This document shows positions 59,546 through 61,781 of a stretch of DNA of 64,000 nucleotides, in pieces (within the stretch, counting starts at the first letter, position 1; every line of letters starts with the position of its first letter). Below the pieces are notes generated by a model. It did not search any database. It was not told where the DNA came from and was given only the letters and a program-made list of their open reading frames with translations. Origin of the DNA: the human T2T-CHM13v2.0 reference genome, Homo sapiens; NCBI RefSeq assembly GCF_009914755.1, contig NC_060930.1. The stretch is one strand, 5' to 3'. Position numbers and translations under genes: made by a program.

Positions 59546-60122
59546 GACCCTCAAAGATATGAGACTTGGCTATAATGGAAGTGACATAAATCAGTGGGAA
59601 AGTTCAATGGTTTTGAGTTAACTGGCTATCCAAACAAACACACAAAAAATAAATTCTACATTACATCCTACCCAGAAGTAAATTTCAGGTAGCTAGAGTA
59701 AAAAGCAAAACTGAAAACTATTCAAAGAAAATATAAGATCACATATTGATGATATCAGAATAGAGAAGGATTTCTTATACAAAATTTTAAAAGTACAAAA
59801 GTACAAGCAGTTAACAAAATGAAGAACACTATATGATTATATCAATAGATGGGGGAAAGGCGTTTGACAAAATTTAACATCCTTTCATGATACAAATTCT
59901 TAGCAAATTAGGTATAGAAAAAGTGTATCTCAACACAATAAAGCCCATATATGACAAACCCACAGCTAACATCATACATAATCATGAAAAGTTAAAAGAT
60001 TTTCCTCTAAGATCAGGAACAAGACAAGGATAACCATTCTCACCATTTCTATTCAATATAGTACTAGAAGTTCTAGTCAGAACAGATAGGCAAGAGAAAG
60101 AAATACAAGACATCCAAATTGG

Positions 60123-60206
60123 TCAATGTTGACCAGGTTGGCCTCGAACTCATAGCCTCGCCTCCCTGTGCACCAGGACAGCTGGCTTGAGCCACTGATG
60201 CTCCCT
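60123..60206 (-). ncRNA. Retroposed Alu-left-monomer-derived small RNA copy (snaR/CAS/ASR-like)
   Basis: Flanked by TSD CATCCAAATTGG; A-box-like TGGCTCAAGCCAG and B-box GAGTTCGAGGCC; internal deletion relative to FLAM. Confidence 0.65.
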
Positions 60207-61781
60207 AGGCATCCAAATTGGAAAGAAAGAAGTTAAATTGTCACTTTGTAGATGACATGATCTTATATAGAGAAATCCCTAAAGATACCACCAAAAAAAC
60301 TATTAGAACTAATAAATTCAGTAAAGTTGCAGGATACAAAATCAATATTCAAAAGTCAGTAGCATTACTGTATACTAATAATGCACCAACCAAAAAAGAA
60401 ATCAAGAAAGCAATCACATTTATAATAGCATCAAAAATATATACTTAGGAATAAATTTAATCAAAGAGGTGAGAAATCTGTACACTGAAAACCATAAAGC
60501 ATTGAAGAAAGAAATTAAAGACACAAATAAATGGAAAGATATTCCATGTTAATGGATTGGAAAGATTAATATTGTTAAAATGTCCACACTACCCCAAACT
60601 GTAGATTCCATCCAACCTCTATCAAAATTCCAATGACATTTTCACAGAAATAGAAAAAAAATCCTAAGATTCATATGGAACCACAAAAGACAAGGACCAA
60701 AATGGCCAAAGCAATCTTGAACAAAAGGAACAAAGCTAGAGCCATCACACTACCTAATTTCAGAAGCTGCCACAAAGCTATAGTAATAAAAACAGCATGG
60801 TTCTGGAACAAAAACAGACATATAAGACCAGAATAGAGGCCAAAAATAAATCCACACATTTTATGGCCAACTGATCCTTTACAAATATGCCAAGAACATA
60901 CAATGGGGAAAGGACAGTCTCCTCAATAAACAGTCCTGGGGAAACTGGATATCCACATGTAGAAGAATAAAATTTGACCATATCTCACCTCATATACAAA
61001 AATCAACTCAGGCCAGGCATAGTGGCTCACATCTGTAATCCCAGCACTTTGGGAGGCTAAGGCCAATGGGTTACTTGAGGCCAGGAGTTCGAAACCAGCC
61101 TGGCCAACATGGTGAAACCTACCAAAAACACAAAAATTAGCCAGGGGTGGTGGCACACACCTATAGTCCCAGCTACTCAGGAGGCTAAGGCACAAGAATT
61201 ACTTGAATCTGGGAGGCAGAGGTTGCCAAGACCACACCACTGCACTCCAGCCTGAAGAACAGAGAGAGACTGCCTCCAAAAAAAAAAAAAAAAAAAAAAA
61301 CTACTCAAAATGAATTAAAGACTTAAACATAAGATCTGAAATGGCGGGGTGCGGTGGCTTACACCTATAATCCCAGCACTTTGGGAGGCCAAGGCAGGTG
61401 GATCATAAGATCAAGAGATTGAGACCATCCTGGCCAACATGGTGAAGCCCCATCTCTACTAAAAATACAAAAATCAGCTGGGTGTGGTGGTGCACACCTG
61501 TAGTCCCAGCCACTCAGGAGGCTGAGGCAGGAGAATTGCTTTTCTCCTATATTTTCTTCTAGTATTTTTACAATTTCAGATCTTTTTTTTGAGATGGAGT
61601 CTCGCTCTGTTGCTGGGCTGGAGTGCAGTGGCATGATCTTGGCTTCTTGACATTGGTCTGGGCAATAATTTTTTTGGACAAATGAGATTGCATCAAATGA
61701 AAGCTTCTGAACAGCAAAGGAAACAATCAACAGACAACCTACGGAAAGGGACAAAATATTTGTAAACTATACATCTGATAA

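What the first reader, a model, noticed from the sequence alone, without database searches (positions are those of the whole stretch)
60111..60221. Tailless, TSD-flanked insertion of a snaR/CAS/ASR-like Pol III small RNA inside an L1
Seen: L1 ORF2 sequence is interrupted by about 84 nt between direct repeats CATCCAAATTGG (60111-60122 and 60210-60221). The minus strand reads AGGGAGCATCAGTGGCTCAAGCCAGCTGTCCTGGTGCACAGGGAGGCGAGGCTATGAGTTCGAGGCCAACCTGGTCAACATTGA. It aligns to the Alu left monomer but lacks about 19 nt between GAGGC and the B box, has a GGAGC 5' end, keeps an A-box-like motif and a perfect B box (GTTCGAG), and has no poly(A) tail. Established: the primate snaR lineage (ASR, CAS, snaR) derives from the Alu left monomer by internal deletion, and tailless retrocopies of small RNAs exist. 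Inference: this is a retroposed copy of such an RNA, possibly still Pol III-competent; the first T4 on the minus strand is at 59994-59997.
Basis: partly seen in the sequence, partly recalled or inferred. Interest (0 to 1): 0.7.

Follow-up and report, generated by a model that had tools for sequence, protein, structure and literature searches.

The report
Tailless CAS retrocopy inside an L1
This is an old, probably dead retrocopy of CAS, the small Alu-derived element that later gave rise to the human snaR RNA genes, inserted without a poly(A) tail into an ancient L1; it is an ordinary member of a family described in 2011.

Summary
An 83-nt body (60123-60205, sense on the minus strand; one extra A at 60206) interrupts the reverse-transcriptase region of an old L1 ORF2. 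It lies between direct repeats CATCCAAATTGG, which extend to 15 nt with one mismatch.

It has the 19-nt internal deletion relative to an Alu left monomer, the 13-nt 3' deletion that separates CAS from ASR, the family's GGGAGC 5' end, and a B box at +57-65. It lacks the two snaR expansions (Rfam snaR-A 14.6 bits, threshold 98).

Three searches of the window's own genome gave 76 further ASR/CAS copies with the same boundaries. The body is closest to a small CAS subgroup whose RNA ends ...TTGACC-A(n).

The missing tail fits priming of reverse transcription on that CCAA by a nicked target ending ...TTGG. This is inferred.

About 10% divergence from the subgroup majority points to an old insertion. 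No T4 terminator follows for about 125 nt, so Pol III activity is unlikely and was not testable here.

Both the family and tailless retropseudogenes are in print. I could not read the published locus list.

The parts
60123..60205 (-). Body of the CAS element, 83 nt, GGGAGC...CAACATTGA. One extra A at 60206 lies between the body and the 15-nt repeat.
   Evidence: The boundaries coincide with those of 76 other genomic copies. The alignment shows delta1 (19 columns) and delta2 (13 columns).
60141..60149 (-). Pol III B box GTTCGAGGC. It fits GWTCRANNC and sits at +57-65 of the element.
   Evidence: for coordinates and for the 56-nt spacing. The consensus and the +57-65 position are from Parrott et al. 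2011.
60184..60195 (-). A-box-like segment GTGGCTCAAGCC at +11-22. It carries G19A relative to the family's GTGGCTCAGGCC.
   Evidence: position 19, G to A, against all three subgroup majorities.
60207..60221 (.). Target-site duplication, copy at the element's 5' side: AGGCATCCAAATTGG on the plus strand.
   Evidence: AGG before CATCC is seen in 4 of the 11 related L1 copies examined.
60108..60122 (.). Target-site duplication, copy at the element's 3' side: AGACATCCAAATTGG on the plus strand. Its minus-strand start CCAA coincides with the CCAA that precedes the A-tail in the closest CAS subgroup.
59797..60122 (+). Host L1 ORF2, reverse-transcriptase region, left of the insertion. It is decayed and carries stops.
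   Evidence: RVT_1 profile positions 57-143, E 4.6e-13.
60210..60391 (+). Host L1 ORF2, reverse-transcriptase region, right of the insertion. It includes the FVDD motif and a frameshift.
   Evidence: RVT_1 profile positions 149-194, E 0.0073; 3230 first-look candidates in the genome.
59994..59997 (-). First run of four T on the element's strand downstream of the body, about 125 nt past its 3' end.

Best explanation
The insert is a retroposed copy of a CAS RNA. CAS (catarrhine ancestor of snaR) is a roughly 85-nt Pol III transcript derived from the Alu left monomer / FLAM-C by two deletions.

Shown:
- The element has both deletions, the family's 5' end and the B box.
- It is flanked by a 12-nt (probably 15-nt) duplication of the L1 target.
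- It has no A-tail.

Inferred mechanism: L1 ORF2p, or a pre-existing break, left a plus-strand 3' end ...AAATTGG at the site TTGG/AAAG. That end paired with the CCAA lying directly before the A-tail in the source RNA, whose subgroup ends ...CAACATTGACC-A(n). Reverse transcription then started there instead of in the tail. A second nick 15 nt away produced the duplication.

The copy is old and has since decayed: G19A in the A-box-like segment and about 10% divergence from its subgroup. With no nearby terminator it is most likely an inert fossil.
For: - Family identity. The alignment with an Alu left monomer from the same window and 14 genomic ASR/CAS copies shows a 19-column gap (delta1) in this element and in all ASR/CAS rows. 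It also shows a 13-column gap (delta2) in this element and the CAS rows relative to the ASR rows. These are the two deletions by which Parrott et al. define ASR and CAS (passages and whole text).
- Link to the published family. Two published CAS sequences, HsX and the HERV-44200 copy (Supplementary Fig. S5), are identical by eye to L015 and L010 among my hits.
- Boundaries. Matches in the own genome cover query positions about 20-103/107 only, which is the insert and not the L1.
- Spacing. The 5' end to B box distance is 56 nt in nearly all copies, which puts the B box at +57 as published.
- Subgroup. A tree built on the 80-nt body, leaving the 3' end out, puts this copy in a 26-row branch (SH-aLRT 88) holding all TGATT, TGACC and TGAC-ended rows, and outside the TGATT subclades. 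It differs from the TGAC(C) majority at 8 of 75 columns, from the TGATT majority at 14 of 80, and from the ASR majority at 13 of 80.
- The CC is carried by the element in that subgroup. Four other copies (L006, L007, L008, L019) read TGACC followed by an A-tail, each in a different genomic flank.
- Retroposition. My script called direct repeats of 10 nt or more in 45 of 71 assessable copies, and 41 of those 45 start A-rich as L1 targets do.
- Empty-site proxy. 11 of 11 related L1 copies are uninterrupted at the site.
- Precedent. Tailless retropseudogenes whose target is complementary to the last 2-18 nt of the retroposed RNA are described in Noll et al. 2015 (PMC5322556, passages).
Against: - The CCAA at the 3' junction is also native L1 sequence, so it is no evidence for the subgroup. 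The assignment rests on the 80-nt body, where the tree is poorly resolved: 50 of 68 inner branches are open and no starred set holds this copy.
- The single most identical copy is L004 (68 of 80 positions), which is not in the TGAC(C) group.
- The TGAC(C) majority comes from only 4 copies.
- The nick site TTGG/AAAG is not the canonical TTTT/AA.
- A 4-nt microhomology is short.
- Nothing here shows when the insertion happened or whether other catarrhines share it.
- A later precise loss of the tail cannot be formally excluded.
Confidence: 0.85

Rival explanations
1. It is a CAS retrocopy that was inserted with a normal A-tail, and the tail was later deleted, for example by slippage or recombination. 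Internal priming played no part.
For: Most family copies do carry A-tails. A-tails are unstable over tens of millions of years. ASR copies such as L051, L053 and L056 show hardly any A's between the body and an A-rich duplication.
Against: The body abuts the duplication with no residual A beyond the AA that the target itself supplies. A deletion would have had to end exactly at the border of the duplication. The duplication starts CCAA, not A-rich as in 41 of 45 family copies, which points to an unusual priming event. Two other copies abut a non-A-starting duplication with no A-tail between (L017, L023), and L048 by eye looks 3'-truncated and tailless as well.
Confidence: 0.08
2. It is a single decayed free left Alu monomer (FLAM) or Alu fragment that resembles the snaR lineage only by chance deletions.
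For: Parrott et al. report that RepeatMasker scores ASR as closest to FLAM C / AluJb. The copy is only 77-89% identical to its relatives.
Against: The 19-nt deletion, the 13-nt 3' deletion, the GGGAGC start and the CAACATTGA end all coincide exactly with those of dozens of other copies. The nearest Alu left monomer in the window matches only 34 nt around the B box.
Confidence: 0.02
3. It is a live Pol III gene. The intact B box drives transcription from about 60205 through the L1 antisense sequence to the T4 at 59994-59997, giving an RNA of about 210 nt.
For: The B box fits the consensus perfectly at the right distance from the 5' end. The 87-nt RNA folds to -36 kcal/mol, z -2.78, with 2 of 200 shuffles folding as well.
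Against: - The A-box-like segment carries a substitution at a position held in the family.
- No terminator follows the body.
- The upstream flank is L1, not the chromosome 19 parent locus that Parrott et al. think confers expression.
- They report transcript evidence for only one human CAS locus, on chromosome 8 (Supplementary Fig. S4 legend).
- Three relatives folded the same way have z between -0.8 and +0.5, so the fold is not a family trait.
Confidence: 0.05

Closest known systems
CAS (catarrhine ancestor of snaR) elements, Parrott et al., Nucleic Acids Res 2011 (PMC3045588)
   Same: - About 85 nt long, with a GGGAGC start.
- The 19-nt delta1 and the 13-nt delta2 deletions.
- B box at +57-65 and an A-box-like segment at +11-22.
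- The end ...GGTCAACATTGA.
- Flanked by a target-site duplication, intergenic, and dispersed by retroposition.
   Different: - It has no 3' oligo(A/T) tract.
- Its target duplication starts CCAA instead of A-rich.
- Its body belongs with a minority of copies ending TGAC(C)-A(n), not the commoner TGATT-A(n) form.
- The paper's text does not describe this split. Its locus list (a .doc file) could not be read.
ASR (Alu/snaR-related) elements, same paper
   Same: The delta1 deletion, the 5' end and the B box. It also shares several older base states (TTGTCC, GCACA-GGAGG) with ASR.
   Different: ASR keeps the 13-nt 3' segment (AACCTCTCATC-like) and reads CCTGGGCAACAT. This copy lacks that segment and reads CCTGGTCAACAT.
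snaR-A and other snaR genes (Rfam RF02556)
   Same: Same lineage. The 5' and 3' thirds align with the model.
   Different: It lacks both 8-nt expansions (gaps in the alignment). It scores 14.6 bits against a gathering score of 98. It has no oligo(A)-oligo(U) end and is not in the chromosome 19 duplicon.
Tailless retropseudogenes (Schmitz et al. 2004, recalled; Noll et al. 2015, PMC5322556, passages read)
   Same: L1-type target duplication, no A-tail, and a target site complementary to the last nucleotides of the inserted RNA copy.
   Different: Classic cases are truncated inside the RNA at single-stranded A-rich regions. Here the whole body is kept and only the tail is missing. The target start (TT/CCAA) departs from their consensus TT/WAAAAWW.

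Membership tests
CAS | Internal deletion delta1 of 17-19 nt relative to FLAM-C / the Alu left monomer, between the A and B boxes | tested here: met
   a 19-column gap against the Alu left monomer at window 61011-61140, shared with all 14 ASR/CAS rows.
CAS | 3' deletion delta2 of 13 nt relative to ASR | tested here: met
   a 13-column gap relative to the ASR rows; the body continues CAACAT|TGA as in the CAS copies, not CAACAT|AGAAACCTCTCATC as in ASR.
CAS | About 85 nt long, with the family's 5' end (GGGAGC) | tested here: met
   83 nt from GGGAGC (60205) to TTGA (60123).
CAS | Type 2 Pol III B box at +57-65 (GWTCRANNC) | tested here: met
   GTTCGAGGC at 60141-60149, starting 56 nt after the first base.
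CAS | A-box-like enhancer at +11-22 | tested here: inconclusive
   The segment GTGGCTCAAGCC is present but carries G19A relative to all three subgroup majorities. The functional consequence is unknown.
CAS | Dispersed by retroposition, with flanking short direct repeats | tested here: met
   12 of 12, extending to 14 of 15; single-copy target in 11 of 11 related L1 copies.
CAS | [quoted passage not shown] | not testable with these tools
   No other primate genome is held (one search states that the genome has no relatives here).
snaR | Two 8-nt internal expansions (epsilon1, epsilon2) and a score at or above the Rfam RF02556 gathering score | tested here: not met
   14.6 bits against 98, E 3.9. 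The alignment shows gaps of 7 and 8 positions where the expansions lie.
ASR | delta1 present and the 13-nt 3' segment retained | tested here: not met
   the segment is absent.
Tailless retropseudogene | Target-site duplication, no oligo(A), and a target complementary to the 3'-terminal nucleotides of the RNA copy | tested here: met
   for the first two features. The complementarity (CCAA) is inferred from four relatives that end TGACC-A(n) and is not shown for this copy's own source RNA.

The most novel reading that the evidence does not exclude
The copy is not a fossil but a Pol III unit still in use. Its intact B box would drive a roughly 210-nt CAS-plus-antisense-L1 RNA in the extended MHC class II region, between RING1 and VPS52. 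That would be a second expressed human CAS locus besides the chromosome 8 one.

A lesser novelty is more likely. This copy and the TGAC(C)-ended copies mark a distinct stage of the CAS master gene, between the GGGCAA...TGAA form and the TGATT form. The 2011 text does not mention it. The complete human assembly also holds more delta2-type copies (at least 33 by my count) than the 24 human CAS reported.
Probability: 0.06. Interest if true: 0.4.

Novelty: new member of a known kind. Interest (0 to 1): 0.2.

Why it matters
It matters little by itself. It adds one fossil to a low-copy family that records how the human and African-ape snaR genes grew out of an Alu monomer.

Two small points may interest people who study retroposition. 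First, the copy is a clean example of a SINE-like RNA inserted without its tail, apparently primed by four bases of homology just before the tail. Second, together with its relatives it suggests the CAS source gene passed through a TGACC-ended state before the TGATT state that led to snaR.

For annotation, this 84-mer should be labelled CAS, not FLAM or Alu fragment.

Tried and rejected
- Rfam scan of 59900-60450 at E up to 10. It gave only a weak snaR-A match (14.6 bits) and a chance snoRNA match, which is not enough to name the element.
- The locus list of Parrott et al. (Supplementary Dataset). It is a .doc file that cannot be read here. The readable supplementary PDF holds no Hs6, Pt6, Mm4 or 'chromosome 6' label. 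The main text mentions no chromosome 6 or MHC locus. Whether this locus is among their 24 human CAS therefore stays open.
- Earlier findings of this scan were not open to the session.
- RNA folding. This copy folds better than its shuffles (z -2.78). Three relatives do not (z -0.62, +0.54, -0.79), so no conserved structure is claimed.
- The bacterial-type promoter and terminator scan is irrelevant to Pol III and found nothing of use.
- Pfam on the raw translations failed on stop codons. It was repeated with stops read as X.
- I did not type the published CAS or snaR sequences into any aligner. The comparison with HsX and HERV-44200 was made by eye against the genome's own copies, L015 and L010.
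- A single decayed FLAM was considered and rejected (see rival explanations).

Full report
**1. What is there**

On the plus strand, the 12-mer CATCCAAATTGG occurs at 60111-60122 and again at 60210-60221. The repeat finder extends the pair to 15 nt with one mismatch, AGACATCCAAATTGG at 60108-60122 and AGGCATCCAAATTGG at 60207-60221. It was the only direct-repeat family found in 59900-60450.

Between the 15-mers lie 84 nt.

An exact direct repeat of 12 nt or more within 150 nt arises somewhere in 25 of 2000 dinucleotide shuffles of this A-rich 551-nt region. The repeat alone is therefore only mildly unusual. Its weight comes from sitting precisely at the ends of a recognisable element.

**2. 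The host is an L1 ORF2**

With stops read as X, the left flank matches Pfam RVT_1 over profile positions 57-143 (E 4.6e-13). The right flank resumes at positions 149-194 (E 0.0073, below the Pfam cut-off on its own) and includes the FVDD motif.

The right flank has 3230 first-look candidates in the genome, with the best at 84-88% identity. That marks an old, abundant L1.

In 11 of 11 related L1 copies examined, the site reads ...A(G/A)G CATCCAAATTGG AAAGGAAG... once, uninterrupted, with the 12-mer exact in 6 of the 11 and carrying one or two substitutions in the other 5. This stands in for the empty site. AGG before CATCC is seen in 4 of those 11 copies, which favours a 15-nt duplication that has since taken one substitution.

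**3. What the insert is**

Parrott et al. (Nucleic Acids Res 2011, PMC3045588; I read the abstract, sections 16 and 18, passages, and the supplementary figures PDF) and Parrott and Mathews (2011, PMC3337139; I read part 1 of 3 of the text) describe three stages.
- ASR is FLAM-C or the Alu left monomer minus 17-19 nt (delta1).
- CAS is about 85 nt. It is ASR minus a further 13 nt near the 3' end (delta2). It has a B box at +57-65 and an A-box-like segment at +11-22. Most copies are flanked by target duplications, and 24 copies were counted in human.
- snaR is CAS plus two 8-nt expansions.

The window's own genome could be searched. The insert with short flanks gave 40 matches. The 39 others, at 77-89% identity, cover only the insert (query positions about 20 to 103/107).

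Searches with a young CAS copy (this locus ranks 33rd of 40, at 81%) and with an ASR copy (40 scored of 101 candidates) added more. After fetching I held 77 copies including this one. Each search scores only 40 candidates, so these are lower bounds.

Two of the copies, L015 and L010, are identical by eye to the published CAS HsX and to the HERV-44200 CAS printed in Supplementary Fig. S5. This ties my set to the published family.

I aligned an Alu left monomer from the same window (61011-61140) with 14 of these copies and this element.
- All ASR/CAS rows, this element included, have a 19-column gap relative to the Alu (delta1).
- The CAS rows, this element included, have a further 13-column gap relative to the ASR rows (delta2).

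The distance from the first G of GGGAGC to the B box is 56 nt in nearly all copies. The B box GTTCGAGGC therefore sits at +57-65, as published.

Rfam's snaR-A model matches end to end but with gaps where the expansions lie. It scores 14.6 bits against a threshold of 98. The element is therefore CAS, not ASR and not snaR.

**4. Place within the family**

After CAACAT, the 3' ends fall into groups.

| 3' end after CAACAT | Copies in the tree | Notes |
|---|---|---|
| AGAAACCTCTCATC... (ASR) | 37 | |
| TGA-A(n), with GGGCAA | 5 | |
| TGACC-A(n) | 4 | This locus, L006, L007, L008; L019 is also of this type but is 5'-truncated and not in the tree |
| TGAC-A(n) | 2 | L002, L040 |
| TGATT-A(n) | 20 | Includes HsX and the snaR-like chromosome 21 and chromosome 7 copies |
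| other | 3 | |

A maximum-likelihood tree on the 80-nt body, which leaves the 3' end out, is poorly resolved: 50 of 68 inner branches are open. It does put this copy in a 26-row branch (SH-aLRT 88) made of all TGATT, TGACC and TGAC rows, outside the TGATT subclades. ASR, TGAA and 'other' rows lie on the other side. Six of the 77 copies lacked a 5' or 3' anchor and were left out.

This copy differs from the TGAC(C) majority (4 copies) at 8 of 75 informative columns. It differs from the TGATT majority (18 copies) at 14 of 80 and from the ASR majority (34 copies) at 13 of 80. Its single most identical relative is L004, at 68 of 80, which is an intermediate form. The subgroup assignment is therefore likely but not firm.

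**5. Why there is no tail**

My script called flanking repeats of 10 nt or more in 45 of 71 assessable copies. Of those 45, 41 start A-rich and follow an A-tail, which is the signature of L1 target-primed reverse transcription. A few of these calls are low-complexity A runs and are weak.

Four calls do not start A-rich. One (L020) still follows an A-rich tail. The other three abut the element with no A-tail at all: this locus (CCAA...), L017 (a TGATT CAS inside an Alu on contig 12, duplication TCAAACTCCCGAC...), and L023 (an ASR, TTAAAAGCTTC). L048 looks by eye like a 3'-truncated tailless CAS inside an Alu.

Here the junction reads TTGA|CCAATTTGGATG. In L006, L007, L008 and L019 the RNA-derived end reads TTGACCAAAA..., so in that subgroup CCAA lies directly before the tail.

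The inference is as follows. The nicked plus strand ended ...AAATTGG-3' (site TTGG/AAAG). It paired with CCAA in the RNA, and reverse transcription began there.

Noll et al. 2015 (PMC5322556, passages) describe this class. Their tailless retropseudogenes have target sites complementary to the last 2-18 nt of the retroposed RNA, and they state that SINE transcripts are also sources.

There are caveats. CCAA is native to the L1, so it cannot itself prove the RNA's end. Four bases is little. The nick site is non-canonical. A later exact loss of the tail is the rival reading; I give it about 8%.

**6. Age and activity**

About 10% divergence from the nearest subgroup majority and one change in 15 nt of duplication fit an insertion tens of millions of years old. 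This is an inference from 80 nt and the error is wide.

The B box is intact. The A-box-like segment has G19A relative to all subgroup majorities. No T4 lies inside the body, and the first downstream is at 59994-59997, about 125 nt on.

Parrott et al. report transcript evidence for only one human CAS locus, on chromosome 8. They attribute expression of the lineage to the chromosome 19 parent locus. The copy folds to -36 kcal/mol (z -2.78), but three relatives show no such excess. I rate present Pol III use at about 5%. It cannot be tested here.

**7. Novelty**

The family and the mode of insertion are both in print. In the held library only the two Parrott papers contain the phrase 'catarrhine ancestor of snaR'.

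I could not read their locus list (a .doc file). The readable supplement and the main text name no chromosome 6 locus. I therefore file this as a member of a known kind whose listing is unverified.

By my classification of the 3' ends, the complete assembly holds at least 33 delta2-type copies against the 24 human CAS reported. The difference may only reflect search thresholds or where the authors drew the line between ASR and CAS.

Noticed in passing
L017:1472-1583 (G000 contig 12, about 100,305,922-100,306,011, minus): A second CAS copy without any A-tail. It is of the young TGATT type, sits inside an antisense Alu, and is flanked by TCAAACTCCCGAC(T/C)TC. The body abuts the duplication after TGAT.
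   Followed up: partly
L048 (G000 contig 3, about 65,751,051-65,751,108, minus): A CAS copy that stops after about 58 nt, just before the B box, and runs straight into Alu sequence that repeats the upstream flank (CCAAAGTGCTGGGAT). It looks like a 3'-truncated tailless retrocopy.
   Followed up: no
L001-L077 (own genome): The ASR/CAS copies fall into a graded series of 3' ends: ASR, late ASR with CATCCATT, TGA-A(n) with GGGCAA, TGAC(C)-A(n), TGATT-A(n), then snaR-like copies on contigs 21 and 7. This is what a single evolving source gene would leave. At least 33 copies have the delta2 deletion, against the 24 human CAS reported in 2011.
   Followed up: partly
window 61011-61300 (+): A full dimeric Alu with a long A-tail lies about 800 nt downstream, inside the same L1-rich stretch. 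I used its left monomer as the reference for delta1.
   Followed up: yes
window 60114-60141: A 13-nt inverted repeat (CCAAATTGGTCAA / TTGACCAGGTTGG, 85% complementary, 2 nt apart) spans the 3' junction of the element. It arises because the target's CCAATTTGG partly mirrors the element's CCAACCTGGTCAA. It is probably incidental.
   Followed up: no
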